The translations under genes and the position numbers were made by a program. A DNA stretch of 56,061 nt from Candidatus Margulisiibacteriota bacterium (GTDB lineage Bacteria; Margulisbacteria; Riflemargulisbacteria; GWF2-35-9; DYQY01), in the NCBI GenBank assembly GCA_028706105.1, contig JAQWCF010000002.1, forward strand, positions 1 through 56,061, given 5' to 3'. How positions within the stretch are numbered: the stretch's first letter is position 1; each line of letters starts with the position of its first letter. Below the pieces are notes generated by a model. It was not told the DNA's origin, searched no databases, and worked only from the letters and a program-made list of their open reading frames with translations. This document shows, one piece after another, positions 3,313-39,473 of the stretch.

Positions 3313-4407
<1,095 letters not shown>

Positions 4408-10008: not shown

Positions 10009-10021
10009 TTACATTGTTTAG

Positions 10022-10027
10022 TAGAAT
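10022..10027 (+). promoter_or_regulatory. -10-like TAGAAT 6 nt upstream of the DUF559 gene ATG (leaderless-type)
   Basis: The plus strand reads TAGAAT-tgagct-ATG. Confidence 0.4.
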
Positions 10028-10033
10028 TGAGCT

Positions 10034-10587: not shown

Positions 10588-10754
10588 ATTTTAAAAATAG
10601 TATGTTTAAGATAGAAAATATTGGGCAGAATATAGATAGTAGATAGCAAATAGTAAATAGTGAACCCTCTCTGTCAGGAGAGGGTGGCGATATTGTAGTG
10701 GTTAAAAAGTTCTCGGTGTCTTACGCCGGGTGAGGTTAGCGAAAGGATAAAGAT

Positions 10755-13700
10755 ATGACATCAGTTGAAGGAGCACCGAAGTTTTATTTTAAACAAGTGG
10801 CTAAAGGCTTTGATGCAACAACTAGTGGAGCATTAAGAGCTGTTCCAATTTCTGCTGCTAAAATATCAGCCTTGCTTAACGATACATTTAATCCTTCAGT
10901 CCAATTAAATGAAAATTTAGTTGGGCAATTAGAAGGTATTAGCGTGATTTCTGCTAGTTCTTTAGTAGGACCAAGTGAATCAGTTTTAGATAGATTATTG
11001 GATGGTGTTTCTCAAATCCAAGGAGATAGTCATTTTACGAAGGACGGACTTGAAGCTGTTAAGGAAGCATTAAATATATGGCTTACTGCTAGTGATGATA
11101 CATCAAAGGCAACTGCATTGGAAACACTTCAGGGTTTTTTAAAAGATGGAGGTAAAGTAGGGGCTAAAGATGTTTGGGTTATAGATGCAGTTAGTTCGGA
11201 TGCATTGCCATCAGGAATTATATCGTATGCAGAATTGATTATGTTTCAGAAAGAACTGAAGATGGATGTCTCAACACCACCAGCAGTCAAGCCAGATGCA
11301 CCAGCAGCAGTCAAGCCTGAAGCATCACCAGAAATATCACCTGACGATGAAAAAGTTTTAATATCAGTTTTGTCACTTCAAGATTTTGTTATGCGAGCAA
11401 AAAATCCGAGTGACGCAAAAGCGCTTGATAAGTTGCCATTAGATAAGTTGCCATCACAAATCAGGCAGTTATTCACTGGTAATGAAGACATTAGTGATAC
11501 AGCTAAAGTAGCAATGTTAAGGATGCTTGCTCTTGCTGGGTATTTTGGTGAAAGTACAGATTATGAGGGTGAGTCAAAGGGTGTTTTTAAGGAGGGCGGA
11601 CAAGATGTGTCTATTTCTTGGGCAGGCGGTACAGCCTTTAGAACAGAATTTTTTAAACCTATTGAAGGTCACGAGTTGCCACACGTTGACAGAAACTCGT
11701 TAATAAAAGCAATAACTGCTATGTGTCGTTCTTTTGAATCAGTGAAGATGAGAGGTAGTACTGTTAATTTTGAAAAATTTTCTAAAGATTTTATTTCAGC
11801 CTCTGCTTATTCTATTACAAGAAGGAGCACTAACTCCGCTGCTGCTGCTGACCATTTAGCCCGACAATTTAGTTCTGGTGGCCACGCAGTAACTGCAGAC
11901 CAGATGACAAGTTTGGCAAATAATTTTGCTATGGTAACATTACCATTGTCACCAACGGCTCCATTCCGACTTTTTGGTCCAGGGGTTCAATTAGTGCTGA
12001 AGGGCGAGGAGTTAAAGATTTCAGTTCAAGGTGATAACAATGTTTTTTATGAAGTTGTAAGTTTTAAGAAAGCTGACTGGGATAAATTTTTGACATTTAT
12101 GACTCAGAAGAATCCTCCACCAAATGAAAAAGAGAAGGAACTCTTGTTCCTTAATATACTTGAAATGTTGGCACAAGGCGACTTAAATGAAATGACTATT
12201 TATAGAGATGAGGATGTTAAGGAAACAGAGGATATAAACTTAGTAGAAACTCAGGCGAAAGCAACAGCTTTGAAAGCTGCGTTAGCGTCAGTAAAGGGAG
12301 TGGCGACGTCACAGGAACTTTATGACGGATTGAATCGTGAAGGCGTAAATCCTGCATCGCTAATGTATTGGGATGCAGGTAATCCTGCTGTAGCAGCTAA
12401 TGATAAAGCGAACCCTCCTGTCTTAGCTAAAGCGGCTATTCCTCCTTCATGGAAATCAGTATTTACGGGTAACGCAATTGCTGGATATGCTTTGGCTACA
12501 AGCTTTAATGCTGGCACAAATTATCAGTTCAGTATTGAAGGATATACTCCAACGGGAGAAAAGACTACTAAAACTGAGTCATACAAGTTTGAACTTCCCC
12601 AAACGTTTACCAATGCTATTAATGCGTCAACAGCACCACCACTAGCAGCGAGACAAGCAGGAGCAACGGGTGGAGCAGCAGGAACAACTGGAGACACTAA
12701 AGAACCGCCAGCAGATGCAAGTGGAAGACTAACGCTCAGAGAGAGTAATGCTCCCTTATTCCCTGGTATGAAGGTGAAGATTGCTGATTTGGTAGGTGGA
12801 GAGGTTGGTGCTTATAATTTTGATGGGAGTACGTCTTATTCTATATTAAACGGTGAGACAGAATTGACTATTCCTGCAAATGCTACTAAGTTAACTTTTG
12901 CAAAAACAAAAAAGGACGAAACTGATTCCAGTATAACAACGATAGATGATTCATCACCGATTGTTTCGATAGAAGTCAAGAGTGCTGATGCTATAGCCCC
13001 AAAAAGTATGCTTAGTTCAGCCCTTGGTACACCAGAGAATGTGGCAATATACTTGAATGGTCAAATCAAACAGATAACTCCAATTAACATTGCAGAAATT
13101 ATACCTGCCGCAATGCGTAAACTTTATAATGCTGGAAAACTTGTTAAAGAGACGCCAGCGGTATTGGCTTTGGTTTTAGGTAAAATAGATTATGCTAACA
13201 CTGATGTAGCTACTAGTTTTGTGAACGCACTAAATGGATTATCTCCGGATGACTTAGTAAAAGTTTTTATAGCGTTGGATTATGCAAATGGCGTGGAAGC
13301 CTTAAAAACCTTGGTGGCTAATTTCATTGCAAATATGGATTCCGGTAAAAGGAATGAGTTAATTAAGAAAATTAGTGATACTTGGAGTGTAGACGATTTT
13401 TATGATATAGGAAAAAGACTGATAGATATTGTAGATAAAGCTGTTTTTGTTGAAGGCCTTTTGACGGATAACCATGATTTCTCAAAGGTAGCATATTTAA
13501 TGAAAGGGATTTGTGGAGAAGAGTATAATAATATGGTAATTGCTAAGTTGAATGAAAATATAGAGGCAAAGGGGTTGTTGGCTTTAATTAGGGTTGGGGG
13601 ACTGGGTGATAATTTACAGCCAAACATACTTAAGAATAAACAGTTGTATAACCCTGAATTTCTTGGGTCTGCTTCAGGGCGGCTAGTTTTGAAGAAACTG

Positions 13701-14018
13701 ATTACAGAATTACCACAAGAATTTGCTAGTTTCTTAAATGCTTCTGCTTCTGTTGTATTCCATACAGCGGTTGGGTTGCTTTCTAGCAAATGGTTTATGG
13801 CTTTATTAACAGAGACAGCAACTTCAAGTGTAGAGGATAAAGCAAAGGTCATTAAATTTTTAGATGGGTTAACTCAACCAAACGGTCCTAATTTTATTAA
13901 TATTTCAGGTATTAAAGACAAAATTTCAGCTATTCAGGAGATAAGTAAGGATGCAAATATAGGTGATTCAGATGGGGGAAATAACAATCCCAGTCCGAGC
14001 CTACTAGTAACAAGCTAG
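10755..14018 (+). CDS. large hypothetical protein (1087 aa), Ala/Pro-rich linkers, no signal peptide
   Basis: ORF track. It is the only long ORF in this region. It has low-complexity tracts (PPAVKPDAPAAVKPEASPEISP; ARQAGATGGAAGTTGDTKEPPADA). I recognise no family. Confidence 0.75.
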   Translation: MTSVEGAPKFYFKQVAKGFDATTSGALRAVPISAAKISALLNDTFNPSVQLNENLVGQLEGISVISASSLVGPSESVLDRLLDGVSQIQGDSHFTKDGLEAVKEALNIWLTASDDTSKATALETLQGFLKDGGKVGAKDVWVIDAVSSDALPSGIISYAELIMFQKELKMDVSTPPAVKPDAPAAVKPEASPEISPDDEKVLISVLSLQDFVMRAKNPSDAKALDKLPLDKLPSQIRQLFTGNEDISDTAKVAMLRMLALAGYFGESTDYEGESKGVFKEGGQDVSISWAGGTAFRTEFFKPIEGHELPHVDRNSLIKAITAMCRSFESVKMRGSTVNFEKFSKDFISASAYSITRRSTNSAAAADHLARQFSSGGHAVTADQMTSLANNFAMVTLPLSPTAPFRLFGPGVQLVLKGEELKISVQGDNNVFYEVVSFKKADWDKFLTFMTQKNPPPNEKEKELLFLNILEMLAQGDLNEMTIYRDEDVKETEDINLVETQAKATALKAALASVKGVATSQELYDGLNREGVNPASLMYWDAGNPAVAANDKANPPVLAKAAIPPSWKSVFTGNAIAGYALATSFNAGTNYQFSIEGYTPTGEKTTKTESYKFELPQTFTNAINASTAPPLAARQAGATGGAAGTTGDTKEPPADASGRLTLRESNAPLFPGMKVKIADLVGGEVGAYNFDGSTSYSILNGETELTIPANATKLTFAKTKKDETDSSITTIDDSSPIVSIEVKSADAIAPKSMLSSALGTPENVAIYLNGQIKQITPINIAEIIPAAMRKLYNAGKLVKETPAVLALVLGKIDYANTDVATSFVNALNGLSPDDLVKVFIALDYANGVEALKTLVANFIANMDSGKRNELIKKISDTWSVDDFYDIGKRLIDIVDKAVFVEGLLTDNHDFSKVAYLMKGICGEEYNNMVIAKLNENIEAKGLLALIRVGGLGDNLQPNILKNKQLYNPEFLGSASGRLVLKKLITELPQEFASFLNASASVVFHTAVGLLSSKWFMALLTETATSSVEDKAKVIKFLDGLTQPNGPNFINISGIKDKISAIQEISKDANIGDSDGGNNNPSPSLLVTS

Positions 14019-14095
14019 ATTGACTTTCATATAATCAATTTTTATTAGAAAAAAATGTTTATAAATCCACTTTTATGGGAATACTATATTATAGG

Positions 14096-14101
14096 TATAA
14101 T
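14096..14101 (+). promoter_or_regulatory. possible -10 box TATAAT about 35 nt upstream of the giant ORF
   Basis: The plus strand reads ataggTATAATat. A weak -35 (ttatgg) lies 17 nt upstream, and an AAGGA SD follows before the ATG at 14137. Confidence 0.3.
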
Positions 14102-14136
14102 ATAGTATAGAAGATTTAACAGAAGGATGGGTTTAT

Positions 14137-17100
14137 ATGGGATTTGGTGATGGTAACATTGGCGCTTTTGGAGGTTATGGTTCTTCAAGAACTAGCATTC
14201 CTGCTGTATCTTCTATTCCAGAAGTTAAGAAAGTAAAAGTTAATCAAGAACAAGAACTTTCTGCGTTATCCGCTAATGTTGTTTTTCCAATAGATAAGAG
14301 AGGGAACTTGGTTGTTCCTCAAGAATTAAAACAGTTAATTGCTCAAGGCAGAGATTTAGCTGTGATGGTTACCTTTAATGATGATAGTCAACAAAGATTA
14401 GTGATTGGTGAAAGTAACAAAGATTTACTATTTCAGCTAGACTCAAAGGATATATTTGCAATTCAAGTTGGAATTGTGTCAGGTAAAGGGGATACAACTT
14501 CCCCTAGTATAGAGTTTGGATATATGCCAGAAGACCTTATCAGGTTAAGAGAAAATATTGTTATAACAATCAATGAAAAGAATGAAATTAAGTGGCCAAC
14601 ACTCAAGAGTGTCGAAGATAAGGATTATTCTTTTAAGGTTGGAAATGTAGAAGTAGATAAGTCAAAAGTTTTTAACTATGATACGAATAATCCAATATAT
14701 TTAATTGTAAAAAGACAAGGGTTAGTTTTTTCATTTAAACTTAAGTTAGAAAGAAAGATTGCAGAAACTGCTGCTACTAAAAAAATACAATCAGCTGACA
14801 CAATATTTACTGAAGCAGTAAGTCCTATTTCAGAACAAGTAACAATCAAAGGTGTAACTATTAATGAGAACAAAGCTGTAATGCCTACCTTAGATGCTGC
14901 TGATAGTAAGGTTAAGGCACTTGAGGAGAATGGATACAATCTGTATTGGAAATATTCAAACGAAAACGGGACAAAGTATTTGCCTTTTTCAGAAGGAAGC
15001 ATCGCCTTAGCTGATGGGTATTATGATCAAGGAAATATTTCTTTATACATAGGAAAGAGTTCTATTAAAAAATCAGAAATTAACAATGAGTTGTTAGTCT
15101 ATAGTGAAACGAGGTTAGATGTACAAGCTGTTGTTGCTTTGAAAAGTAAAGTTGATGAGATATGGAGCTTTTTAATTGACCAAGGGATTCTTGAGAAGAC
15201 TGATAGCCCCGAAGGTTCTGCAAATATTCTAGTTTCAACAGATGAGATAGAACAAATTCTTATTAATTCTAGTTTTGATTACAACACAAAGGTAATTCTT
15301 TTTCAATTATTAACAAAGAGTATTAACATTGATTTAAAAGTTGACTTGGATATGTATGTTTCAAAAGATGTTGATTTTAGTACACCGATACCAACGCTAG
15401 ATGTGGCAAAAATTGAAATTAATAGAGAAGGTAACGCAAGTTTTGGACTTCTTGTTAAGGAAGGCAAGGTATCAGTTTCTTTATCTTTCCAACAAAAAGA
15501 TCTTGCAATTAAACTTGGGTGCAAAGAAAGTGATTTGCAAAAGTTATTTATGAAGGCTCAAGAAAATGGGTATGTCGATGCTTTAACAGGTGGATTAGTA
15601 ATTACAAGTGATAATTTAATGCAAATAAAAGAATTAATAGAAGATGTTAATTTAAAAGAGAATTGGGATATTTTATTTTCAAGCGTTGAGTTACCAATGG
15701 ACATACAAATTAGTTCTAAATCATCTGCATATGAACGGAAGAGTGTTCAGTTTTTTATTGGAAATCAATTAAATCTTAAAAAGGGAGAGATTTTAGTTTC
15801 TTGGACAAATGGTGTCGATAGCTTGACTTTAGCTCCTGAAGTTTCGAATCAACTTATTGAGGTGGAGCGTGTAGTTGGAGTTAATGAAAACAGAGTTCTC
15901 GCTCCAGAGATAGAAGGTTTATTAGGAGAAGTTGATATGTTTTATGCAGTAGAAGGAAACGGTATTTCCAGTTTCAGTAGGATAAACCAATATGGTCAAT
16001 CCTTGAATGAATTGGCTATTGATTATTTATTAGAAAATGAAGCAACAGTAAACAGGATAAGACAAGCAATTATTGACAACAAACCAATTGAAAATAAAGA
16101 TAAAGTTTTTATTTATGATTTGTTGTTTTTTGGCTTTAATAAAAGCAGATTAATTAATGATTCTATGTTTAGTTTTGAAGATAGTAAAAGTGTTGACCAA
16201 ATGTCAATTTCAGGAATGTTTTTAAGGGTTGAAGTTTTAAACGTTTTGTTTGGTAAGCAATTCGCGTATTTAAAAGATTTTTCTGATGTTTTTAAGATGG
16301 TTTTTAATCAGCAGGAATATAAAGCAATAGCCTATCAAAGAACAAATATAGATACAAGTTCCCTTGAAGTTTTGAAGCAACCAACGGATGTTCAATCTAG
16401 CGGTGACAGTAGGGCAGTTCAGCAATCTAATGAAGATAATTATGTTTATTTTGTTGAAAAAATTGAAAATTTTGAGAATCTTTTCGAGGCATATGTGGCA
16501 CCAAGAAATCAACAAATGGAAGAGATACAACAAATGCTGCATATGTATAATCCAGCATTTGCTGATATTAATGGACAAAAAGGTATAAGAAGCGATGAGA
16601 TGAGATATTTGGCAAATTTGTTTAGCGAGGAAACTGCCTCAGCTCAGGAGATGGTTGGTTTGTTTCAAAATAATCAGCAAATGATTATTCAATTGTATAA
16701 CCAATATCCAGAAGTTAGGAAAATTATAGATGATGCAAAATTACAAGCATTTGTTGATCCATTAACTATATCATTGTTGATTAAAGGGCAAGGCGAGTCT
16801 TTAAATACTAGCGGTATAAAAAATGAACAGTTTATAAAACAGGCATCTGCTATAAATCTTGGTATTACAAAGGCAGATGGTACTCCACTAACGCTTTATG
16901 ACTTATTGGTTGTTGGTAATCAGTTATTAACTGGAATATCTGGAACGCTTATTAAAGAATCTTTTAAATATGAAAATAATAGTCAGTTAAAGGCCTATAG
17001 CATTCTAAATAGTAGGGCTGTTTTTGGTTATTCAATAAGCCAGGTGTATCAGTCTTTAGAACAAAAGTTGCTAAGCAAACTAAGAGGTTCAAATGAGTCT

Positions 17101-20100
17101 TTAATTGAAATATTCTCAGGCACAAAGTTGTATCAATTTTTAGTGGATGAGTTTAATAAAGATAGTCAGGGAATAGCAACAGTTGAAGAGTATTGTTTGA
17201 GTTATATTCAGAAGAAATTTGAGGCTAAATATTCAGAGATTGAAAGTTATTTAAAAGACGGAAAAGGAGATGGTTCTGCTATACAGATGTTAATTGAACA
17301 TTTTGCTGGTAGTGCTATAGATAGAAAGGTTTTAGGTCAAATTAAAGATGTTAAAATTGTTCCTAATCAATTATCAAAAAGTAATTATAGTGTTAACCCT
17401 GATAAATTAAATGAGCCTAAATATAGAGCTGCAATTCTGAATTTGGTATATCAAACACAAGTAAATAAAACTCAGGGTCATGGGTTTAGGCAAACAACAA
17501 ATGTTTTTAATCAGATCAATATTTATCAACTTAAAGAGATAATAAATATTATTTCTTCAGATGAAGATTTTTCTGAACTTATAAAGCCATTAAAAGAATT
17601 AGTTGCTACTTTAGAGAATACTGGTTGTGTTCTGATAAAGAGTGTAGCTAGTGGGTTTGAATATTATAAAGCTGATGGTTCTTTTGTTACAGTTGCGGCA
17701 ACACCGTTAATTGAATTAGTTAAAGGATTGGTTGATAGAAATATTTTGCAGGGCGTAGTGGAAACATCCAAGACTTTTACAGCTAAATTACAAAAATCAT
17801 TAGCAGCTGATAGAGATATTAAGGTGCAAACAAAGGTTATTAGTTTTGATAAGCAGTTTAATATTGATAGTTGGACAAGGATAAGGTTGCTGTATTTAAA
17901 GCAAACAAATATAGAAGCATATAATAATATAGTAGCTGCTTTAGCCAAAGTAGAAGATAACGATTTAAGTGATCCTAATGTTTTACGTTATTTGAGTTCC
18001 GTTTATATGAATCCTACTTTCTTGTTGTCTCAGAATAAGCCTGTACCAAGCGAAAATTTATTTATGCTTGATGCTGATTTTGCTCTTTGGCTAATAGATG
18101 TAATTCAAAGTGATAGTTCTGCTTTTTTGGGAGCAGATTTAATAGTTGACTTAGTTTTTGGGAGGAGGCAGACATTTACTCCTGATAAGAAAACTGTGTT
18201 GAATTATTCGCAGGGAGATATAGGGGAAGCCTTAACTGAAATCAGAAACAAGATTTTGGAAGGAAAAATTACTTTTAAAAATAACGAAACGATGCTTCTT
18301 GATGGTGACAGTCCTGAAATGAAAAAATTGAAAACATTAATGGCTGTATGGATTCATGGTGTAGATAATAACGCTATTCAGAAACTAGTTGATTTGAAAG
18401 ATTCTACTGCTGAACCACAAGTGGCTGATTTGCAGGATGCAAATAATTTATTTGGCTCATCAGCTGTGTCCTTTATTAATCAATACTTTGGACCAGTTCC
18501 AAGTTTGGGTAGTTGGTTAACATCAGGAGCATCAAAGGTTGCTGGTTTGCCAGAAGTGGGGATACTTACTTCAAATATTAAAGATGCATTTTCTGGTCTT
18601 ATTACAAATTCTGCATATAATAGCGACCGCTTAAAGAGCGAGGTGATTTATCATAATTTAATTTTATCAAATAATGAAATGAGTGATGAGTATGTTGATG
18701 TTTTTATTAATGGACTAAGAAGTTATATTAATCAAACATACTTTCATCCTTCAAGTGAGCTATCAAAAAAGGAAATAGAGGAATTACTGCAAGGGTGGGA
18801 ATCTCTGAAAGATGTTGAGCCTAAAGGAAACTATGTTATCACTCAGGAAAACTGCAAAAGTAATTTAAAGTATTTATATATTTTAAAATTAGCTGCGGTG
18901 GCATCATTTTTAACAATGAATGATGGACTTGGTCGTTCTCAGGAATTAGTTTTAGTTGATGGATACATGACAGGAGCGGAAAAGAAAGAGCCAGTTAGTG
19001 ATGGTGGCGGGTCTGCACTAGGTGGTTTAGCTTGGGATTTATTGAAAGGAAATAACCCAGCGTTTGTTTTTAGTGAAGGATATCAGTATGTAAGCGCAGT
19101 ATCTGAAGAGAAAAAAAAGGAAGGTCATGTAGCTTTAGGGGTAGGTGTTGGTGATGCTACTTTAAATTATGTTAGAACCCCTCTTGAGTTTATGAAGTTG
19201 AGTTGGTATTTTAAGTTTTCAAGACCTTTAGATATTTGGAAAAGTGTTATTTCTCAGGTGTCAGGAGAAAATAATGTTTTACATCAAAAAGAAATAGCAT
19301 CTCAAGTTGCATTGGTTACTGCACAGATAGATATAATACGGGATTTGCAGAAATATGGTGAATCGTATGGGTTAAGTGTTGCAGTAATAGGTGATGTAAC
19401 TAAATCTATTGTTGGTATGGAGAATGTTATTAAAACTATTAGAAATCTAACTTCTTTAAAAGATATTGAAAAGAAAAAGTTAGAAATTTTTGTTTTACTT
19501 TCTATGTATATTAATGAAGCAGGTGTTGCAAATAAAGATAGTTTGAAAACAGAATTGTTTGAGCAATTTAAAGGCATAAAAGAAATAACTGTATTGGATA
19601 GATATATAAAAGTAGTTAGCAAATTAATAATTATGAAAAAAGATGGACTTAGTTTAGATGATAGTAGTTATCTTTCAATGCTTAAAAATAGCGATGGGTT
19701 GTTGGTTTTAGAAGAAAAAATAAAAGAAAAATACCAAAAAAGTAGATGGGATTATTTAGAAGGAGCTTCGTTTGGAGGATATGAGGCTGATCATAGTCTT
19801 GGTGCTTTTCAATCTTTGGATGAAGACATTGATGACTTGATGGGGACTGTTTGGAAAAGGGTTGCTGACACTGCAGTTGAAGTAGCTACCATTCAGTTAG
19901 ATATTTATAATTTCACACATAGCTTCTATCAATTCTATCAGTACTTAGGCATATGGGAAGACATGTCAAACGCAGCTACCCCTAGTGATTGGGCTGCAGT
20001 TTGGATAAAGATTAATTTGGCTAATATGTATGTTTTGCCAAAGTCAGGACAAAAATTTAGTGATAGCTGGATGGGCAGGACAGTTGGCAGAGATGTAATT

Positions 20101-32100: not shown

Positions 32101-35100
32101 GCAACTAACGCCGGAGTGATTAATTTAACTATTAGAGGGGCTGTTGTTAAGATTCCACTAGCTGGACCTTACGCAGCTGCCGCTTATGAGTGTTTGAGTG
32201 TGTTAATTGAAAATTGGGATGAAGTTAAATCAGGAGGAATTTCTTCCAGTATAGCTATTGAGGAGGCGGTTGAAAAGGCTCTTGTGGTTGGTGGAGCGGT
32301 GTTCGTTGGAACAGTTACTGCTAAGGCAGTTTCTGTTGTGATTGCTTCAATGTTAGCAGAAACGAGTGCTGGTGCTGCCGTGTCGGGCGCACTACCGGTT
32401 GCTCTTTTGACAGTTGCAACAGCTGCTCTTGTATATTATGCACCAAAAGCTTATGACTGGGGAATTGAAACAACAGGTATAAGAGAAGACAGGGACGAGG
32501 TTAGAATGTTAGCCAATTTCTCAAAGGAGGCAGGTGTTACATTGGAAATAACTAATTCTAATGTTCATTCGTGGGGACCTTTTTATTGGAGTAATTTTTT
32601 TCAGGACACAAAAAATGGATATTATGATAATGAAAACCTACAAGAGTTAATGGAGAATATATATCCTGGGTATTCTTCATTAAAAGCTTCCCTTGGGCGC
32701 GATAATCCTGCTTTTGTTATAGAGAATGGCTCTGGGCCTACAAGAAGGGCTCCTAGTATTTTTGGTAAATTACATGAGTATAGCAACTTAGCTTATGAAT
32801 TAAATATTAGTGTTAATAGTCTTTACGATATGAATCCGAATTTATTTATTCATATTTGTCAAACTTTAGAACAGAATAAAGATAAGATTAAAGGGAAGAT
32901 GGTTAATGTTTCCATTGAGAGGGTGGGTTATCAAGATCAACCTGATTTTATGGTTAATTATGTAGTTAAGTTAACGATAGATTATCCTAAGGATGAAATT
33001 AGATTAACAATGGGGGCTCAGGAAAAACCGACAGAGATTATTTCTCCATGTTCAATAAGATTACATGGTAAAGGTATTAGTTTATCTGAAGGGATTAATG
33101 TTTTTTCCGCAGTAAACACTGGCAAGCTAGTTGTTGATGGACAGGTTGTGGATTCATTGAAGGTTGTGTCAACAGATAGAACTTGGAAGGATACTCTTAT
33201 TGATGAAGGATTGGGTCGATTTTTACTGGAAACATTTATTGTGAAAGGTGATATTAATTATGAAGGATTAAAATATAATTCTGAATCACAAGGTTATGAG
33301 GAGTGGTCAAATCAAATTCTTAAAGATAATAAAGCATTAATTGCTGGTATGGTACAAAAATATCTTGTAACAGGCGAATTGCCTATAAATGATCCAAAAT
33401 ATAAAAACATTATAATTGCAATAGCTACAGAAATTCTAGAAGAGGATATAAAAAGAAATCAAAACAAAGCAGATTCAGCTTTGTTGAGGTTAACTCAAGC
33501 CCAAAGGAATAAAGCTTTGTATGAATGGAGAACGTTAGATTCTGAAGGCAAGAGGATTTCCTCTCTTAGTGATTTGAGTGGCAAAGAACGGACTGGTTAT
33601 TTAGATTTTTTAAAAGCATATAGATATTTGAGTTTAGGGTTTATTAATCCAGAAGCAATAGCAACAATTGTTGGTTGTGATATTCAAGAAGCAAAGTTGA
33701 TTGTTAGTGTGCTTAAGCAGTCCGAGGTTCTTAAAGGTATTGATAATAATCAAAATGATCTCTATAGAATTGATTATAAAAAAATAACCTTAGGTGAAGA
33801 TGAGCTAAAAGAATTTATTGATGTTTTGAAGAATAGTATTACAGACGAAACATTTATTGGTTTTGGTGTAGATGTAAAAAATGAGAATATTTTAAGGATA
33901 GCTGCAGGTATCGAAACAGTAATAAATTCAGCACTTAGTTTGTCAGAATATGTTTATTTTACTAGACAGCCTCGTGATCGTATTCGTAAAAAAGAATTTG
34001 CTTTAAGTGGTGATGATTTTAGAAATATTTATATGCTTTATAAGAATGGGGCTTTTAATAAAAGAGATTCTGGTTTTCTTCAGTTTCATCCTGGCGAATA
34101 TACCATTGTTAATAAGCCAACCCACTTAAGGCAAGTTTTCCCTTTTGATTTATTGTCCACTAATTTTTTTGCCGATAATCTTAGTGTAAGCGAAAGGCTA
34201 ATGCGTCATTCGAAGAGTTTTAATCAATCCAAGTTTTATAAATATGTGTATGATAATTATGGGAGTTTGCAGGCTAATGACTATGATAAGTATATGAGGG
34301 CTAGAGGGTTTATTAGTATTAGTAATGACTCCGAAGTTCGTAGTGCAACATTAGACTATTTAATGGTTGCAAATTATATTACCAATGAATCTTCACATTT
34401 TTTTGAATCACAGGCTAGATTGGATTATAAGAAAACTTATGCCTTTAGGTGCTTGCCTGATGAACAAATCGCTGAGTCAATAAAAGAATTAGATATTACT
34501 GCTAGGGAGGATATTGAAGATGCTTTTAGGCTTTGGCAATACGATAGTTTTTTTCAAGAACATAAAGACAGTGTGCTTTTTAAAGTAGATATGAGTCCAT
34601 CTGCTTTGTTTATAAGGAATGATTATCAGAGCAAGAAGCAATTAAATATTAGTTTGTTTATTTTCAGAGTGATAAGAGGTGATTTTTCGCAGTCACAACT
34701 GAGTAGGATTGTTGCAAGCAGAGGGAAATTTGATCAAATTTTAAAGCAAATATCTATGAGTGACATCAAAAAATTAAACCTAATCTTTACAAAGCTTAGT
34801 GACCCAAACCTTGCATCTATTGATAGGATGAATGCTTTAGATTATATAATGGAGAATAGTAAGGCTATTAAAGAGTTATACGATTTTATGTTTGACAATG
34901 GTTCTTTGTATTATGGCTGGGAGAATGTAGCATTGGTTGAGAATACTGGTTATGATTCAATAGAGAAGTCAGCAGGGGATGATGTTAAAGATTTCCAGAA
35001 TTTTATTAAGACGATAGCTTTGTTTAAAGGAGTAGCTGGCATTCCTTCTTTGTATTCTAGGAGTAAATTTAGAACATATAATTTTAACTGGATGAATAAT

Positions 35101-35694: not shown

Positions 35695-35867
35695 TATATT
35701 GTTTTTTTTTGATATGTGGTTTTGTTTGCAATAATCTAAGGGTTGCAACGATATATTAATATAAATAAAACATCTGAAAGGGGTGTGGTCATTATAGCAC
35801 TTGTGAATACGGTTAAGATTAGTAAATAGTAAAAAGAAAAATTTAAAAAATAATAGGAGGAAATAAA

Positions 35868-36245
35868 ATGCCAGTAGAAAATAATATGAAAGTAACAACC
35901 CCAGCGAAGTTTGATAGTACAAAAATGGAAAAGGTAGCCCCTTCTCCAGCTCAATTAGAGAATCTTACTGCACAAAAGGTAGGACTTGGTAACAGCCTTA
36001 AAAGTATGGCGACAGTTGGTCCACAGCTAGGCGAAGATGGCGTAGAACTTGCGGCAATTGTTAATGGTGGGGCAGTAAAAGTAGCATCTACAGCTGTTAA
36101 AAAAGAAGCAGGACAAACAATCGTTTTTGATAAAGCAGCGGCTCCAGCAGAAATTGCGGCAACTGATCCAGCAGATAAAGCAGCAGATGCATCAAAATTA
36201 GATTCAAAAGCTGTTAAGCCAGGAGAAGTAGAACAAGCAGATTAA
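35868..36245 (+). CDS. small Ala/Lys/Pro-rich, probably disordered protein (125 aa)
   Basis: ORF track. A canonical SD (ataGGAGGaaataaaATG) precedes it and a strong hairpin follows it. I recognise no family. Confidence 0.65.
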   Translation: MPVENNMKVTTPAKFDSTKMEKVAPSPAQLENLTAQKVGLGNSLKSMATVGPQLGEDGVELAAIVNGGAVKVASTAVKKEAGQTIVFDKAAAPAEIAATDPADKAADASKLDSKAVKPGEVEQAD

Positions 36246-36266
36246 TTAAAATTATTTTGCTATAAT

Positions 36267-36296
36267 AATAAGAAGTGCCAAAAGGCACTTCTTATT
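36267..36296 (+). terminator. strong stem-loop after the 125-aa gene (aataagaagtgcc-aaaa-ggcacttcttatt)
   Basis: Perfect 13-bp stem with a 4-nt loop. There is no clear U-tract, so it may be an attenuator or a processing/stability element rather than a full terminator. Confidence 0.5.
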
Positions 36297-36314
36297 AAGA
36301 AAAGAAATAAGGGG

Positions 36315-38000
36315 ATGGACATTATGGGGGAAAGTAGTCTTGGTGTTTTAGAAATAGAGAAAAAATATTCAGAAAAATTTTCAAGTGTACTAAATCAACT
36401 AATATCAGCGGAATCAGTTATTTTGCTTTCTGATTTTTTGAAAGCAAAAACTTCAATTAAAAATACAGATAAAATAGTTGGAGATATCGTAGGCTTGATT
36501 GAATCAACTATTTATGGGTATATAGAATATTATGCTGTGATGCAGTATTTATATATGGATAAAACAGGAGAGTGGACTGAAGCTGGAGAAGATCGTGTTA
36601 AAAGTTCATTTTTTGCTGTTTTAAATAGTTTTCCAGCAGATAAAGATTTGAATTATTCGGACTATTCTTTTTCTCAAGATAAAATAAATCAATTAGCAGT
36701 TTTATATAAAGTAGATAGTTTAAATAAGGAAGAACTTTCTAATAGAATAAAATCACCAACGTTCGATATTTTGGGGTTGTCTTTTAGCTTTACTGAGACT
36801 GCAAAACTGAACAAATTGTTAGCTATTGTAAGCAGTCAAAGACGAGTTATTATGGGGTTGAGTGGAAGTTACATTTCAATGATTTTTGCATTAGCCACAA
36901 CAGTTAAGTATCATGAATATGAGATACATATTTTGTATAAAGAAGAAATCCGTACCCCTAATGCAGTAAATTATATAGTTGCTGTTATTGATCAAAATCA
37001 GATTGCAATTCGAAGAGAGGTTTGTGAATATATATTTTACAAAAAATGGCTTCCAGTTGTAGAAGATGAACCATTTTTTTTGAGTTTCATGAACGGCAAT
37101 CTTGAGAATCAAGTAGCTGAAGCAATTAAAAAACAAGTAATGCAGGCTTATTCTGTTAATAATAAAGAAGAATTATTAGAAGTTAAGGATGATTTTATAA
37201 ATAAAATGATGGAGAATTTTTCCTATCATGAGGTGTCTCATGATATTTTAGATGATTTTAATTTAACTAAAGAGGAATCATCTATGGTAACGGCTATTTC
37301 AGTTCAAGAAGAAAATATCTTGACTGTTATGACTGAGGTGTTAACTGAATGGATGCCTGGTTCGCTTCATTTGAAGGGACCAATGAAAAATATAGTTGAT
37401 ACAGCAGTTAAAAATGGTAATAATTCAAAAGCACGGCAACTTTTGTTAACGTATATGAGTGATGGTTGGTTTTTAGATACAGACACGGAATTTATGCATT
37501 CCTATACATATCTTATGTTTGCTCCTTTATTGAAGTGTTTGAAGTTAGATTCCGAGATAGATTTTATTGAATTATATGGTGAATTAAATAGTATTTTTGA
37601 TTTTTTTCTTACTTGGTATAGAAATACAATTGCGGATGTGTTGGTAAAGTTGAAAAAAATGGAATATGTTGATACAGATAAAGAAATCCTTGATTATGAC
37701 TCTTTCAATAAAAGAGTTGAAAAATGCATGAGAATATATAATGAACTTATTAATAAAAATCTTTCTGATGATATTATAATAAGCCAGAATTGGATTAATT
37801 TTTTCAGTCAAATGAAGTCGCTGTCTCCACATAATTTTGAAAGTATTAGTTCGTTGATTTCTGATAAAGAGCAACAATTGTATAAAGATTTAATTTTAAA
37901 GTTTGGTGGTGAAGAGTCTGCCTTAAAGTATGGAGATGATATTCGTTCATTTGTTTTAGATGGAATGATTAGTCGCGGATTTAGTATTCCTTTGGAGTAG
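36315..38000 (+). CDS. hypothetical protein with HExxH (HEVSH) zincin-like motif; paralogue of a module in the giant ORF
   Basis: 561 aa. HEVSH lies at aa 305-309, VLTEW at about aa 342-346 and NGNNSKARQLLL at aa 367-378. These mirror HETSH / MLLEF / DGNRAQSKAIFQYLL in the giant protein. Confidence 0.7.
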   Translation: MDIMGESSLGVLEIEKKYSEKFSSVLNQLISAESVILLSDFLKAKTSIKNTDKIVGDIVGLIESTIYGYIEYYAVMQYLYMDKTGEWTEAGEDRVKSSFFAVLNSFPADKDLNYSDYSFSQDKINQLAVLYKVDSLNKEELSNRIKSPTFDILGLSFSFTETAKLNKLLAIVSSQRRVIMGLSGSYISMIFALATTVKYHEYEIHILYKEEIRTPNAVNYIVAVIDQNQIAIRREVCEYIFYKKWLPVVEDEPFFLSFMNGNLENQVAEAIKKQVMQAYSVNNKEELLEVKDDFINKMMENFSYHEVSHDILDDFNLTKEESSMVTAISVQEENILTVMTEVLTEWMPGSLHLKGPMKNIVDTAVKNGNNSKARQLLLTYMSDGWFLDTDTEFMHSYTYLMFAPLLKCLKLDSEIDFIELYGELNSIFDFFLTWYRNTIADVLVKLKKMEYVDTDKEILDYDSFNKRVEKCMRIYNELINKNLSDDIIISQNWINFFSQMKSLSPHNFESISSLISDKEQQLYKDLILKFGGEESALKYGDDIRSFVLDGMISRGFSIPLE

Positions 38001-38003
38001 GAA

Positions 38004-39473
38004 ATGAATGCTAAAATTATTTCTTTAGCATATCCTTCTGGAATTGGTTCGCTTTTGGATCAAGAACTTAAGCCAATAATCAATTTTTTCCAAGAACAAA
38101 TATCTATAGGTAATAGTGTATTTCAGCAAAGAATTGATGAATTGCAAAAAATGCTTAAAGGTTTAAGAAGATGCGATAATCTTATATTTCGCGACTTTTT
38201 ATCTACAGTAGATATGTTTGATGATAGACAGGAAATTTCCTTGCTTAGTATTAAAAGAGGATTGAGTATAGTTGAGTTCAGACAATACATATCAGATTTT
38301 GCTAATTTGTCTTCGATAGATATTGATTCTTGGGTTAATGATTTTTGTATAACTCAAGATATTGTAAATTCTGATGGTAATGTCTACAAAGCATGTACTT
38401 TAAGAAGTGATTTAAGTGAGGATGATTTAAGTAGAGCAGATACTCTGATACCAGAGTTATATAATTACTTATTAAACATAATAGAAGAGACCGAGGATTA
38501 TTTGTATTATAGGGAAGATATTAATGAATCTAAGATAAACATCGACACAGATGTGTTTAAAGCTTTAATATTATCAGAACCGGTTAAGCCCGTTTTCGGT
38601 CAGAAAGCTATATTTTCTTGGAATCATACTCATCCTACTAGGAGTCAAGAAGTTCAAAGTAGATATTCCAAAAGAAGTGGTTATTTTTTTTCTGTTGCTG
38701 ATTTGAAAGTTGTTAATGAAGTTGAAAGAAATGCAGAAGTGTTTTCTGCTTATGGAGCTTCTTTTGTTGAGAGGGATAACTATTACGAAGATATCAATGG
38801 TAACAAAGCAAAGCTTACAGTTAGTCCGCAATATATTAGCTATGTCGCTCGTCGTTTAGCATTTTTGGATGCATACAGATATATTTCTAAAGTAAGTAAA
38901 TTATCATCAAATGTGTTGATTAGTGTTGCTTTAGAGATAGCAAATTATTATGTTGGAAATAGAAAACAAGAGGATGTACAGGGTTTATTAGAAAAGTATA
39001 ATTTAGAGCCAGAACTTATTGAAAAATTTAAGAAGAAAGTTTTTGATAGTGGCGAAACCTCAGAGTTGAATGATTTTTTTGGTATGCATGCTAATTATCC
39101 TGAAGTAGCGGCATTAAAGGAAGGCCATGTTTCTTATTTTGTTAATAGGTCAATGATTAATAGAATGATGGACCCAAAACGAACAGAACTTGGCGATATG
39201 AAGTATCATGAAGCGATAGAGTTTATTAAGCTTCGTTCATCAAAAACACTAAGACTTATCCTTTGTGCGAAATATGATTTGTCAGACCTTTTCATTAGAG
39301 ACAGAAAGTTCCTCGGAAATAGAATAGTTAGTGTTTCAGCTAAGCAAACGTATATGCCTTTGCTTAAGGAACTATGGAACTCAAAGAATCTTACTGAAGC
39401 GAGAGAAGCTAGGGATAAGATTTTGAAGGCCTTTTATGAGCTTGATAAATCAGGCGAGTTGTACGAAGACTAA
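38004..39473 (+). CDS. hypothetical protein (489 aa) with a weak JAMM-like HTHP...SVAD motif
   Basis: ORF track. It starts 3 nt after the stop of the 561-aa gene. WNHTHP lies at aa 206-211 and SVAD at aa 230-233. The spacing is longer than in canonical JAMM proteins. Confidence 0.65.
   Translation: MNAKIISLAYPSGIGSLLDQELKPIINFFQEQISIGNSVFQQRIDELQKMLKGLRRCDNLIFRDFLSTVDMFDDRQEISLLSIKRGLSIVEFRQYISDFANLSSIDIDSWVNDFCITQDIVNSDGNVYKACTLRSDLSEDDLSRADTLIPELYNYLLNIIEETEDYLYYREDINESKINIDTDVFKALILSEPVKPVFGQKAIFSWNHTHPTRSQEVQSRYSKRSGYFFSVADLKVVNEVERNAEVFSAYGASFVERDNYYEDINGNKAKLTVSPQYISYVARRLAFLDAYRYISKVSKLSSNVLISVALEIANYYVGNRKQEDVQGLLEKYNLEPELIEKFKKKVFDSGETSELNDFFGMHANYPEVAALKEGHVSYFVNRSMINRMMDPKRTELGDMKYHEAIEFIKLRSSKTLRLILCAKYDLSDLFIRDRKFLGNRIVSVSAKQTYMPLLKELWNSKNLTEAREARDKILKAFYELDKSGELYED

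What the first reader, a model, noticed from the sequence alone, without database searches (positions are those of the whole stretch)
10755..39473. Five-gene, ~28.7 kb same-strand locus built around a 21.6 kb ORF: candidate undescribed giant-protein system
Five plus-strand genes (1087, 7185, 125, 561 and 489 aa) fill half the window. They interrupt an otherwise housekeeping context, with hom upstream and queC/aspS downstream. I recognise no whole-protein family for any of them, and none has an N-terminal Sec or lipoprotein signal. What can be read directly: the giant ORF carries a complete SecA-type motor, a HExxH module and a C-terminal block of Gly/Ala-rich hydrophobic helices. The 561-aa gene looks like a free-standing paralogue of the HExxH module. 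The 561- and 489-aa genes are 3 nt apart. The 125-aa gene has a canonical AGGAGG SD and its own hairpin. The left border is a repeat-dense junction (9748-10738). The right border is a queC gene with its own promoter. By eye, the giant ORF has the same AT-rich composition as the flanking genes, so it does not look like a recent import. Working hypothesis (inference only): a self-contained apparatus in which a giant protein brings its own translocation ATPase and membrane-insertion segment, with protease-like accessory or maturation factors, for example a surface, contact-dependent or effector-delivery system.
Basis: partly seen in the sequence, partly recalled or inferred. Interest (0 to 1): 0.88.

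Follow-up and report, generated by a model that had tools for sequence, protein, structure and literature searches.

The report
Hypervariable giant SecA-motor protein locus
A real 7,185-residue gene in a Candidatus Margulisbacteria genome carries a stripped-down copy of the SecA protein-export motor and sits with three partner genes at the same chromosomal spot across the phylum, yet its sequence is swapped and diverges far faster than its neighbours, which suggests a self-exporting interaction or conflict protein of a kind only recently noticed in other phyla.

Summary
All five ORFs are at the stated coordinates. The window is a complete contig of a Candidatus Margulisbacteria MAG.

The giant protein holds three conserved modules:
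- a divergent SecA-type motor (NBD1-PPXD-NBD2), without SecA's scaffold/wing part;
- an invariant HExxH...ExxADF module;
- a Gly/Ala-rich hydrophobic module with two predicted membrane helices.

The remaining ~4,500 residues match nothing and contain no repeats.

Four genes (giant, small low-complexity ORF, 558-aa HExxH protein, ~490-aa protein with an HxH...SxxD motif) recur in this order, usually right next to queC, in about 15 independent Margulisbacteria assemblies. I could not show that the 1087-aa gene belongs to the unit.

The locus is a replacement-type hypervariable site. Two genomes whose flanks are 95% identical in DNA have giants only 21-32% identical in protein, and giant relatedness disagrees with flank relatedness.

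Giant proteins with embedded SecA-like ATPases are already described in Omnitrophota and Actinobacteria, with self-export proposed. I therefore rate this a new, lineage-specific variant of a known but functionally untested kind. The accessory trio, the new 558-aa fold and the allele exchange are new observations. The mechanism is inferred.

The parts
14137..35694 (+). Giant ORF, 7185 aa (MDD4526477.1). The core gene of the module.
   Evidence: ORF; exact NCBI match. Collinear homologues of 5313-7119 aa lie at the same position in other Margulisbacteria contigs. No internal repeats by self-BLAST.
14137..18186 (+). Variable N-terminal region of the giant (aa 1-1350). No detectable similarity even to other full-length giants.
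   Evidence: Tile map against 12 giants or giant fragments: 0 hits. No Pfam, NCBIfam or PDB hit.
21934..24126 (+). SecA-type motor (aa ~2600-3330): NBD1 with an inserted PPXD, then NBD2 carrying a large insertion. Motifs: AGGGKT at aa 2646-2651 (nt 22072-22089), DEAD at aa 2758-2761 (nt 22408-22419), LSGT at 2984, NRAVDIQ at 3167, RLGRTLGLGRSEG at 3256.
   Evidence: Pfam SecA_DEAD gives 19.7 bits, below the cut-off, for the window protein. Family profile A2 against the PDB: all 23 hits are SecA, best E 2.6e-18, covering SecA residues 82-450. AF2 model plus Foldseek: the top 35 hits are SecA or SecA2, E 8e-15. In homologues, SecA_PP_bind scores 41.8 bits, SecA_DEAD 35.9 bits and P-loop_SecA 35.8 bits, all above the cut-offs. 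Motif residues are invariant in A2.
24484..25386 (+). Conserved block downstream of the motor (aa ~3450-3750), of unknown fold. It is not recognisable as a SecA scaffold/wing.
   Evidence: Conserved with P0025, P0024 and P0026. Profile A3 has no PDB sequence hit. No SecA_SW Pfam hit in any giant scanned.
26194..27036 (+). HExxH module of the giant (aa ~4020-4300). HETSH lies at aa 4228-4232 (nt 26818-26832), followed by E-F-S-A-D-F.
   Evidence: HE.[GSA]H...E..A[DL][FLY] is present in all 9 giants where the region is available; H, E, H, E and A are invariant in A6. No PDB or Pfam hit.
31774..32526 (+). Gly/Ala-rich hydrophobic module (aa 5880-6130). The two strongest predicted membrane helices are at aa 6055-6073 and 6081-6099 (nt 32299-32433).
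   Evidence: Kyte-Doolittle scan. The module is conserved in the giants of L009, P0027 and P0025. No PDB hit.
32584..35691 (+). Variable C-terminal region of the giant (aa ~6150-7185).
   Evidence: No similarity to any other giant. Other genomes carry an unrelated type of C-terminal 3,000 aa.
35868..36245 (+). Small low-complexity ORF (125 aa) with its own SD (35855-35860) and a downstream hairpin (36270-36293). A small ORF of 74-279 aa occupies this position in every locus.
   Evidence: Only the C-terminal third is conserved with close relatives. Nucleotide similarity to L007 begins at about 36097, inside this ORF.
36315..38000 (+). 561-aa ORF (probably 558 aa, starting at 36324): a Margulisbacteria-specific HExxH protein. 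HEVSH lies at nt 37227-37241.
   Evidence: Ten homologues at 38-81% identity, with H, E, H and the downstream E/TEW invariant. The AF2 model is confident (pLDDT 85.5) but has no PDB or BFVD structural match. Weak profile similarity to the giant's HExxH module.
38004..39473 (+). 489-aa ORF. The family has invariant E77, H208-x-H210, (F229)-S-x-x-D233, G251, E367 and G374. The HxH codons are at nt 38625-38633 and SxxD at 38691-38702.
   Evidence: Alignment A4 of 11 members, 17-62% identical. No Pfam or PDB sequence hit.
10755..14018 (+). 1087-aa ORF upstream of the giant. Its membership of the module is unproven.
   Evidence: One partial homologue, P0023 (69% identity over aa 190-503 only). No similarity to the giants. 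Two metagenome scans found nothing. It is separated from the giant by a 118-nt AT-rich spacer with promoter-like hexamers.
9748..10738 (.). Left junction: direct repeats, a 109-nt tandem duplication, three copies of a ~50-80-nt REP-like element, and a DUF559 endonuclease-like ORF (10034-10414).
   Evidence: The REP-like element also occurs downstream of aspS in L007 and L009.
39500..40165 (+). queC, the conserved right-hand anchor of the locus.
   Evidence: Pfam QueC, 250 bits. queC lies directly downstream or within about 5 kb in all loci where the contig continues.

Best explanation
Shown:
- This is a Margulisbacteria-specific four-gene module: giant protein, small low-complexity protein, 558-aa HExxH protein and ~490-aa HxH...SxxD protein. 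It is fixed beside queC throughout the phylum.
- The giant contains a SecA-derived ATPase (NBD1-PPXD-NBD2) with all nucleotide-binding and arginine-finger motifs intact, but without SecA's scaffold, wing and two-helix finger.
- It also contains a gluzincin-like HExxH...ExxADF module and a Gly/Ala-rich hydrophobic module with two membrane-helix candidates.
- These three islands sit in ~4,500 residues of non-repetitive sequence that is hypervariable and is replaced by recombination between lineages.

Inferred:
- The protein is tethered to, or inserted in, the cytoplasmic membrane by the hydrophobic module.
- The cis SecA-like clamp/motor threads parts of the giant itself, or of its small partner, into or across the membrane. 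This is the role proposed for the analogous giants of Omnitrophota and Actinobacteria.
- The metallopeptidase-like modules (the internal HExxH, the 558-aa protein and the 489-aa protein) process or release the product.
- The replacement-type hypervariability argues that the exposed product meets an external, fast-evolving partner such as phage, prey, a competitor or a host surface. That would make it an envelope interaction or conflict factor, not a housekeeping enzyme.
For: Gene reality and conservation:
- ORFs and NCBI identity.
- The same gene order occurs in L001-L004, L006-L009, L011-L016 and L018, which come from Marinamargulis-, Riflemargulis-, Termititenax- and GWF2_35_9-type MAGs.

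SecA motor:
- Profile against the PDB finds SecA only, E 2.6e-18.
- Foldseek's top 35 hits are SecA or SecA2.
- Pfam SecA_DEAD, SecA_PP_bind and P-loop_SecA score above their cut-offs in homologues.
- The motifs are invariant.

Other modules:
- HExxH module invariants.
- Hydrophobic module.
- HExxH is invariant in the 558-aa family; E...HxH...SxxD is invariant in the 489-aa family.

Hypervariability and exchange:
- L007 and L009 share 94.9% nucleotide identity over 5 kb of flank and 98% AspS identity. Their 561-type proteins are 59% identical, their 489-type proteins 52%, and their giants 21-32% identical in patches with no nucleotide similarity.
- Window against L007: flanks 81-82% nucleotide identity, accessory genes 78%, giant none.
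- The L007 giant is closest to the L011 giant (50% over 3,138 aa), although their AspS is 80% and their 561-type proteins 38% identical.

Precedent for cis SecA-like export domains in giant proteins.
Against: - There is no signal peptide and only one strong hydrophobic hairpin, so the default topology keeps both long arms in the cytoplasm.
- The motor lacks the scaffold and two-helix finger that canonical SecA uses on SecY.
- No secretion-system genes lie in the 56-kb window apart from an unrelated secDF operon.
- None of the variable regions has an adhesin, toxin or glycan-active domain.
- The peptidase assignments rest on motifs alone. The confident model of the 558-aa protein matches no known peptidase fold. 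Its relative fused to a TIR-STAND protein has lost HExxH.
- There are no expression or localisation data.
Confidence: 0.4

Rival explanations
1. It is a membrane-tethered cytoplasmic machine. The giant stays in the cytoplasm, anchored by its hairpin. Its SecA-like clamp works as a polypeptide unfoldase or feeder for the HExxH sites, following FtsH-like logic (anchor + ATPase + zinc protease), or the protein acts as a huge scaffold. The variable arms are fast-drifting spacers.
For: - No signal peptide and one hairpin only.
- An ATPase, an HExxH and a membrane anchor in one chain.
- Phylum-wide vertical retention at a fixed housekeeping site.
- The SecY-engaging parts of SecA are absent.
Against: - Allele replacement between lineages, and 21-32% identity between genomes with 95% identical flanks, are not expected of a housekeeping machine.
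- About 4,500 variable residues are costly spacers.
- The accessory genes are also hypervariable.
Confidence: 0.2
2. It is an anti-phage or other counter-invader defence system. The giant and its partners sense or abort infection, and the hypervariability reflects an arms race with phages.
For: - Hypervariable, recombining locus.
- The 561-type domain forms the C-terminus of a TIR-NACHT/NPHP3_N-TPR (STAND) protein. That protein sits beside kinase-TPR, RelA/SpoT-TPR-RyR and NUDIX genes in L017.
- A DUF559 endonuclease-like ORF and an MNT/HEPN-type toxin-antitoxin pair border the window locus.
- An AAA_14/DUF4143 gene is inserted in L001.
Against: - No significant PADLOC hit for any accessory gene. 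There is one weak 58-residue hit in the giant.
- No nuclease, TIR or other known effector in the Margulisbacteria module.
- Defence systems are usually patchy and mobile, not fixed at one site across a phylum.
Confidence: 0.15
3. It is a polymorphic-toxin-like system. The variable C-terminal ~1,000 aa is a toxin or effector and the small downstream ORF is its cognate immunity or chaperone protein. The internal HExxH releases the toxin, and the SecA-like and hydrophobic modules export it.
For: - The C-terminal region and the N-terminal two-thirds of the small ORF vary together; the similarity breakpoint with L007 lies inside the small ORF at about 36097.
- Two unrelated C-terminal types exist among close relatives.
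- Giant actinobacterial toxins with a SecA-like ATPase, a transporter domain and a metallopeptidase are a described precedent.
Against: - The whole giant is variable, not only the tip.
- There are no RHS, filamentous-haemagglutinin or other repeats and no known toxin domain.
- The small ORF is low-complexity and Ala/Lys/Val-rich, unlike typical immunity proteins.
- No orphan toxin cassettes lie downstream.
Confidence: 0.15
4. It is an artefact: a chimeric assembly, a decaying pseudogene or a chance ORF.
For: The sequence comes from a single MAG contig. Each giant is a singleton 90% cluster. One relative (L012) appears truncated at the N-terminus.
Against: - An open frame of 21.6 kb in 34% GC DNA cannot arise by chance.
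- Equally long collinear ORFs occur in more than 10 independent assemblies from NCBI, JGI, ENA and Logan.
- The catalytic motifs are invariant.
Confidence: 0.03

Closest known systems
Giant SecA_DEAD-bearing proteins of Omnitrophota and Actinobacteria (West-Roberts et al. 2023, bioRxiv 10.1101/2023.11.21.568195; PF07517 architecture cluster in bioRxiv 10.64898/2026.06.07.730766)
   Same: - A very long single ORF.
- Divergent, fast-evolving SecA DEAD and preprotein-binding domains without scaffold or wing.
- Membrane helices near the motor.
- Peptidase modules.
- Large stretches without recognisable domains.
- A proposed role of the SecA-like part in exporting the giant itself.
   Different: - It is much shorter (7.2 k aa against 10-147 k aa).
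- It has only about two strong membrane helices instead of many.
- It has no glycosyl hydrolase or transferase, dockerin, beta-helix or C39 domains, and no T2SS neighbourhood.
- An exhaustive phmmer search with the motor region found only Margulisbacteria-type relatives, so it is a separate sequence family.
- It has a fixed trio of accessory genes and documented allele exchange, which those papers do not report.
Giant actinobacterial secreted toxins with a SecA-like ATPase, an MFS transporter domain and a metallopeptidase (Kaur, Iyer, Burroughs, Aravind 2021, PMC8195603)
   Same: One giant chain combines a SecA-like ATPase, a membrane segment and a metallopeptidase. The ATPase and the membrane domain are predicted to secrete the protein.
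   Different: No GT4, ART, HTH-array or MFS domain is detectable here. The membrane part is a two-helix Gly/Ala-rich module, not a 12-helix transporter. The phylum and the gene neighbourhood also differ.
Canonical SecA / SecA2 preprotein translocase ATPase
   Same: NBD1 with an inserted PPXD, then NBD2. The SecA-specific motifs match (GxGKT; DExD followed by 'L/IDG.NP.I' against SecA's 'LIDEARTPLI'; SGT against TGTA; motifs V and VI). The profile and the structural model hit SecA first.
   Different: - It is embedded at residues ~2600-3330 of a 7,185-aa chain.
- It has a large insertion in NBD2.
- No helical scaffold, wing, two-helix finger or C-terminal tail was detected.
- phmmer does not reach SecA at all.
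Polymorphic toxin loci and replacement-type hypervariable genomic islands (my own knowledge of CDI/Rhs systems and of O-antigen or giant-protein islands in marine bacteria)
   Same: The chromosomal site and flanks are conserved while the content is highly divergent or non-homologous between close relatives. Allele relatedness disagrees with flank relatedness. A small downstream ORF co-varies with the giant's C-terminus.
   Different: There is no known trafficking domain, repeat scaffold, toxin domain or immunity family. Variation covers the whole giant and also the accessory genes.
FtsH (membrane-anchored AAA+ ATPase with an HExxH protease; my own knowledge)
   Same: The logic is the same: a membrane anchor, a polypeptide-handling ATPase and an HExxH site in one chain.
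   Different: The ATPase is SF2/SecA-type, not AAA+. The order and spacing of the modules differ. There is no sequence similarity. FtsH is highly conserved, whereas this protein is hypervariable.

Membership tests
SecA (preprotein translocase ATPase) | NBD1 DEAD-type motor with Walker A and B | tested here: met
   AGGGKT at aa 2646-2651 and DEAD at 2758. Profile A2 against the PDB hits SecA at E 2.6e-18. Pfam SecA_DEAD is above its cut-off in the L016 giant (35.9 bits) and precomputed for the L001, L004 and L006 giants. The window protein alone scores 19.7 bits against a cut-off of 24.6.
SecA (preprotein translocase ATPase) | Preprotein cross-linking domain (PPXD) inserted in NBD1 | tested here: met
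   The HMM alignment runs continuously over E. coli SecA residues 82-450, which includes the PPXD. Pfam SecA_PP_bind scores 41.8 bits in the L016 giant and 23.0 bits in L015.
SecA (preprotein translocase ATPase) | NBD2 with motifs V and VI (arginine finger) | tested here: met
   Pfam P-loop_SecA scores 35.8 bits against a cut-off of 27 in the L015 giant. NRAVD and R..R/GRT.G..R..G are invariant in A2. Foldseek aligns about 720-860 columns to SecA and SecA-N68. Caveat: the AF2 model has a pLDDT of only 62.7, and profile A3 alone has no PDB hit.
SecA (preprotein translocase ATPase) | Helical scaffold, wing domain and two-helix finger (SecA_SW) | tested here: not met
   No SecA_SW hit in the window giant or in six other giants. 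The profile of the downstream block (A3) has no PDB hit. No structure prediction of this block could be run.
SecA (preprotein translocase ATPase) | Works on SecYEG to export signal-peptide proteins | not testable with these tools
   This needs biochemistry or genetics. The rest of the genome is not in the window.
Giant SecA_DEAD-bearing proteins (Omnitrophota/Actinobacteria class) | Very long ORF with divergent SecA DEAD and preprotein-binding domains that lack scaffold and wing | tested here: met
   compared with the description read.
Giant SecA_DEAD-bearing proteins (Omnitrophota/Actinobacteria class) | Numerous transmembrane regions | tested here: inconclusive
   Only two segments reach a mean Kyte-Doolittle value of 1.6 (plus a buried strand after Walker A). 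Other giants have 0-4 such segments. No dedicated topology predictor was available.
Giant SecA_DEAD-bearing proteins (Omnitrophota/Actinobacteria class) | Carbohydrate-active, adhesion or C39 peptidase domains, and T2SS or carbohydrate-import neighbours | tested here: not met
   No such Pfam hits in any giant scanned. The flanks are housekeeping genes.
Zincin (HExxH) metallopeptidases: giant module and 558-aa protein | HExxH plus a downstream third ligand (Glu), conserved across the family | tested here: met
   Giants: H, E, H, E and A are invariant in 9 sequences. 558-aa family: H302, E303, H306, E338 and E342 are invariant in 10 sequences. This is motif level only.
Zincin (HExxH) metallopeptidases: giant module and 558-aa protein | Recognisable zincin fold or family profile | tested here: not met
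   No Pfam, NCBIfam or PDB sequence hit. The confident AF2 model of the 558-aa protein has no Foldseek hit in the PDB (best E 0.07) or in BFVD. The L017 relative lacks HExxH.
JAMM/MPN+ metalloproteases: 489-aa protein | E...HxH-x7-S-x2-D metal site in an MPN fold | tested here: inconclusive
   E77, H208, H210, S230-x-x-D233 are invariant or nearly so. The HxH-to-S spacing is 19, not 7, and no Pfam or PDB profile hit was obtained. The resemblance is recalled from memory and is a lead, not a test.
Polymorphic toxin systems | N-terminal trafficking domain, repeat scaffold, variable C-terminal toxin and adjacent immunity gene | tested here: not met
   No signal or trafficking domain and no repeats or toxin domain. 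The only matching feature is co-variation of the C-terminus with the small ORF.

The most novel reading that the evidence does not exclude
A phylum-wide, chromosomally fixed 'replacement' locus encodes a self-exporting giant effector or surface protein. In this reading, very old allelic lineages of the giant are maintained by frequency-dependent selection and shuffled between species. It is serviced by two new metalloprotease-like families. One of these (the 558-aa fold) has also been recruited, in catalytically dead form, as the C-terminal sensor or decoy domain of a TIR-STAND immune protein in another bacterium. That would link giant-protein biology with NLR-like immunity.
Probability: 0.2. 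Interest if true: 0.85.

Novelty: new variant of a known kind. Interest (0 to 1): 0.62.

Why it matters
Margulisbacteria are repeatedly flagged as enriched in huge proteins, with no functional assignment. This locus gives that observation a concrete anatomy:
- a compact architecture (7 k aa rather than 30-150 k aa) with three conserved modules;
- a defined set of three partner genes;
- a fixed genomic address, which makes cross-genome comparison easy.

It is therefore a tractable model for a question left open by the Omnitrophota and Actinobacteria work: what does a SecA motor do inside a giant protein?

The sharp contrast between near-identical flanks and unrelated giant alleles points to strong biotic selection. 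The locus could serve as a marker for strain-level ecology in these uncultured bacteria.

The 558-aa protein has a confidently predicted fold with no structural relative. It reappears fused to a TIR-STAND-TPR protein, which is a lead for new sensor or effector domains in bacterial immunity.

Tried and rejected
Searches that found nothing useful:
- Whole-giant and 5,000-aa homologue searches failed on length or time limits.
- A 1,000-aa word-indexed search returned nothing, not even the query itself, so I used the exhaustive representative search instead.
- Single-sequence PDB searches of both halves of the giant: no hits.
- NCBIfam, PADLOC and PHROGs on all five proteins: only noise-level hits.
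- Rfam on 9000-41500: nothing.
- Profiles of the block after the motor (A3), the HExxH module (A6), the hydrophobic module (A7) and the 489-aa family (A4) against the PDB: no meaningful hits.
- Foldseek of the 558-aa model against the PDB and BFVD: nothing.

Upstream gene:
- Two metagenome scans with the conserved core of the 1087-aa protein found nothing.
- The contig of its only homologue is not on record.
- So I could not examine what lies upstream of the other giants.

Ideas rejected:
- Prophage or mobile island: no phage families, no integrase, same composition as the flanks, same site across the phylum.
- Classical repeat adhesin: no internal repeats, no Ig/cadherin/beta-helix hits, no signal peptide.
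- An HExxH in the 1087-aa protein (HELPH at 306): it is not conserved in P0023.
- The weak MraZ (489-aa) and DUF3135/IraP hits are noise.

Full report
**What the window is.** The 56,061-bp window is a complete contig of a Candidatus Margulisbacteria MAG. Four of the five ORFs match NCBI proteins MDD4526476-78 and MDD4526480 exactly. The 561-aa ORF matches PHF25_00405 from its second in-frame ATG (558 aa).

The flanks are ordinary housekeeping genes:
- upstream, on the other strand: secF, secD, tgt, a GH57 enzyme and hom;
- downstream: queC, a nucleotidyltransferase/HEPN-type toxin-antitoxin pair, aspS, glycogen genes, yebC, holA, rmlD, an MCP and an ABC ATPase.

GC content is 0.31-0.36 inside the giant and 0.32-0.38 outside it. 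I also confirmed these smaller claims:
- the 3-nt gap between the 561- and 489-aa genes;
- the AGGAGG 7 nt before the 125-aa gene, and its 10-bp hairpin at 36270-36293;
- the repeat-dense left junction.

**The giant protein, module by module.** Single-sequence searches see almost nothing. Pfam gives one sub-threshold SecA_DEAD hit (19.7 bits, cut-off 24.6). The PDB, NCBIfam, PADLOC and PHROGs give nothing useful.

An exhaustive phmmer search of aa 2450-3649 against 1.84 billion representative proteins found only seven real relatives. All are giants or giant fragments of the same type; where a source name or locus is on record, it is Margulisbacteria. No canonical SecA was found.

A six-sequence profile of this region (A2) then hit only SecA chains in the PDB. 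The best E-value was 2.6e-18, aligned over E. coli SecA residues 82-450, that is NBD1, the preprotein cross-linking domain and the start of NBD2. An AlphaFold model built from that alignment is mediocre (pLDDT 62.7). Even so, it returned SecA or SecA2 as its top 35 Foldseek hits (E down to 8e-15), ahead of the DinG and XPD helicases at 1e-7.

In other family members, Pfam itself passes its thresholds for all three parts of the motor:

| Pfam family | SecA part | Score | Locus |
|---|---|---|---|
| SecA_DEAD | NBD1 | 35.9 bits | L016 |
| SecA_PP_bind | PPXD | 41.8 bits | L016 |
| P-loop_SecA | NBD2 | 35.8 bits | L015 |

The nucleotide-binding and arginine-finger motifs are invariant in the family. 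Nothing resembling SecA's scaffold, wing or two-helix finger was detected, either by Pfam in seven giants or by a profile of the downstream conserved block. So the motor is SecA-derived and probably active, but it is an 'N68-like' core and not a complete SecA.

The single HExxH (aa 4228; 0.04 expected by chance) lies in a ~280-aa module. This module is present in all nine giants where the region is available, and H, E, H, a downstream E and an A are invariant, giving HExxH...ExxADF.

The Gly/Ala-rich hydrophobic block (aa 5880-6130) is also a conserved module. It contains the only two strong membrane-helix candidates, at 6055-6073 and 6081-6099.

A tile-by-tile map shows that the first 1,350 and the last ~1,030 residues resemble no other giant, and that most of the sequence between the modules has few or no matches. 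There are no internal repeats.

**The partner genes.** The 561-aa protein has ten homologues at 38-81% identity, with HExxH and a downstream E/TEW motif invariant. Its AlphaFold model is confident (pLDDT 85.5, pTM 0.77) but has no structural neighbour in the PDB or BFVD.

It gets weak support from profile-profile comparison:
- the alignment is collinear over 222 columns and puts LN..L..GS, HExxH, the downstream E and a G.L..I motif in register;
- P = 0.012, and the score of 28.3 exceeds all 30 block-shuffled controls (maximum 26.0) and the reversed or unrelated controls (12.7-18.2).

The 489-aa family (11 members, down to 17% identity) keeps E77, H208-x-H210, S230-x-x-D233, G251, E367 and G374. 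From memory, this resembles the JAMM/MPN+ metal site with a longer spacer. No profile search supports it, so I treat it as a lead only.

The small ORF is low-complexity and barely alignable between loci.

**Is it a conserved unit?** Yes, for four genes. The order giant (5,313-7,119 aa where complete), small ORF (74-279 aa), ~560-aa protein and 434-622-aa protein recurs in contigs assigned to four groups: Marinamargulisbacteria, Riflemargulisbacteria, Termititenax and GWF2_35_9. They come from the NCBI, JGI, ENA and Logan assemblies. queC lies directly downstream or within about 5 kb.

The recurrence in more than ten independent assemblies also rules out a chance ORF or an assembly chimera.

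The 1087-aa gene is different. It has a single partial homologue, matching only aa 190-503 at 69% identity with unrelated flanks. Two metagenome scans found nothing, and I could not fetch the regions upstream of the other giants. Its membership is therefore untested.

**The key extra finding: hypervariability with allele exchange.**

| Pair | Flanks | 561-type protein | 489-type protein | Giant |
|---|---|---|---|---|
| L007 vs L009 | 94.9% nt over 5 kb; AspS 98%, QueC 95% | 59% aa (70% nt) | 52% aa | 21-32% aa in patches; no nt similarity |
| Window vs L007 | 81-82% nt | 81% aa (78% nt across the accessory genes) | 62% aa | no nt similarity |

In the window-L007 pair, similarity stops abruptly at about 36097, inside the small ORF.

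Conversely, the L007 giant is 50% identical over 3,138 aa to the L011 giant. Yet those genomes share only 80% AspS identity and 38% identity in the 561-type protein.

Close relatives can even carry unrelated types of C-terminal 3,000 aa: L001, L003, L006 and L018 form one type and the window group the other.

This is the signature of a replacement-type locus at a fixed site, with breakpoints that sometimes include the accessory genes. It misses the exchange within the phylum.

**Mechanism.** The anatomy and evolutionary behaviour above are shown. What follows is inferred.

The hydrophobic module probably anchors or inserts the protein in the membrane. The cis SecA-like clamp/motor probably moves polypeptide, either its own arms or a partner. 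The HExxH and HxH...SxxD proteins probably process it. The hypervariability suggests an external, fast-evolving partner.

This matches what has been proposed for giant SecA_DEAD proteins in Omnitrophota and Actinobacteria and for giant actinobacterial toxins with a SecA-like ATPase, a transporter domain and a metallopeptidase.

Several observations weigh against it:
- there is no signal peptide;
- there is a single hairpin, which by itself leaves both arms in the cytoplasm;
- the SecY-engaging parts of SecA are missing;
- no adhesin, toxin or glycan domain appears anywhere;
- the peptidase assignments rest on motifs only.

I put 0.4 on this reading. The rivals are:
- an FtsH-like cytoplasmic machine (0.2);
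- a defence system (0.15);
- a polymorphic-toxin-like system with the small ORF as cognate partner (0.15);
- an artefact (0.03).

**An unexpected relative.** In a 1.64-Mb contig of an unclassified bacterium (L017, GC ~44%), a full-length 561-type domain (26% identity, E 2e-57) forms the C-terminus of a 1,541-aa Zn-ribbon-TIR-NACHT/NPHP3_N-TPR protein. Its neighbours are kinase-TPR, RelA/SpoT-TPR-RyR, NUDIX and IS21 genes. There the HExxH reads YYELTD. The fold can therefore work without the metal site, probably as a binding or sensor domain in a conflict system. This weakens the 'protease' reading and strengthens a link to biological conflict.

**Novelty and score.** The kind, a giant protein with an embedded and truncated SecA motor, is already in the literature, including the self-export idea.

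What I found no description of, in three literature searches:
- this Margulisbacteria family;
- its compact three-module architecture;
- the conserved accessory trio, one member of which has a new fold;
- the fixed address beside queC;
- the evidence for allele replacement.

I rate it a new variant of a known kind, with interest 0.62.

Noticed in passing
L017:7040-11665 (contig CAXXMV010000008.1): A full-length 561-type domain is fused to the C-terminus of a Zn-ribbon-TIR-NACHT/NPHP3_N-TPR (STAND) protein, and its HExxH is replaced by YYELTD. The neighbours are a kinase-TPR protein, a RelA/SpoT-TPR-RyR protein, NUDIX, TrkA_N-RyR and IS21 genes, which looks like a conflict-system neighbourhood.
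   Followed up: partly
window 10396-10478, 10505-10587, 10663-10737: A ~50-85-nt REP/MITE-like element (core AGGGTGGCGA..GTAGTG....TTACGCCGGG preceded by a short hairpin) occurs three times at the left junction. It also occurs downstream of aspS in related genomes, at L007:15737-15820 and L009:15912-15995.
   Followed up: partly
window 10034-10414 and 10370-10587: A DUF559 (Vsr-like endonuclease fold) ORF of 126 aa lies at the left junction. Its 3' end and the following element are tandemly duplicated as two 109-nt copies, 97% identical.
   Followed up: partly
window 9748-9794 and 9873-9919: A second repeat family at the left junction: two 47-nt copies, 94% identical and 125 nt apart, with shorter related copies at 9930-9947 and 9989-10002. 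There is no Rfam match in this region.
   Followed up: no
window 40276-40964: A Polbeta-type nucleotidyltransferase plus an NTase-substrate-binding (HEPN-like) gene pair, the MNT/HEPN toxin-antitoxin type, is inserted between queC and aspS. In L007, L009 and L011 queC is followed directly by aspS.
   Followed up: partly
L001:13193-14470 and L003:14416-14787: Other insertions occur at the same neighbourhood. L001 and L002 have an AAA_14/DUF4143 ATPase gene between the 489-type gene and queC. L003 has a 23S_rRNA_IVP/bAvd-like gene just after queC; bAvd is the accessory protein of diversity-generating retroelements. No reverse transcriptase was seen within the locus.
   Followed up: no
window 37224-37245: The terminator-like palindrome TATCATGAGGTGTCTCATGATA reported by the scan is exactly the DNA that encodes Y-H-E-V-S-H-D of the 561-aa protein. 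It is most likely a coincidence of the HExxH codons and not a terminator.
   Followed up: no
L012:1-8949 (contig CAIUCY010000095.1): This relative's giant is called as only 2,315 aa, and similarity starts at the DEAD motif, so Walker A is missing. A 4,459-aa protein from another contig falls in the same 90% cluster. This locus is therefore probably truncated or frameshifted.
   Followed up: partly
window 1050-4389 (minus strand): A canonical tgt-secD-secF block lies about 6-10 kb upstream of the giant locus. I saw no evidence of a functional link with the SecA-like motor, and none of the fetched loci reaches upstream of its giant.
   Followed up: no
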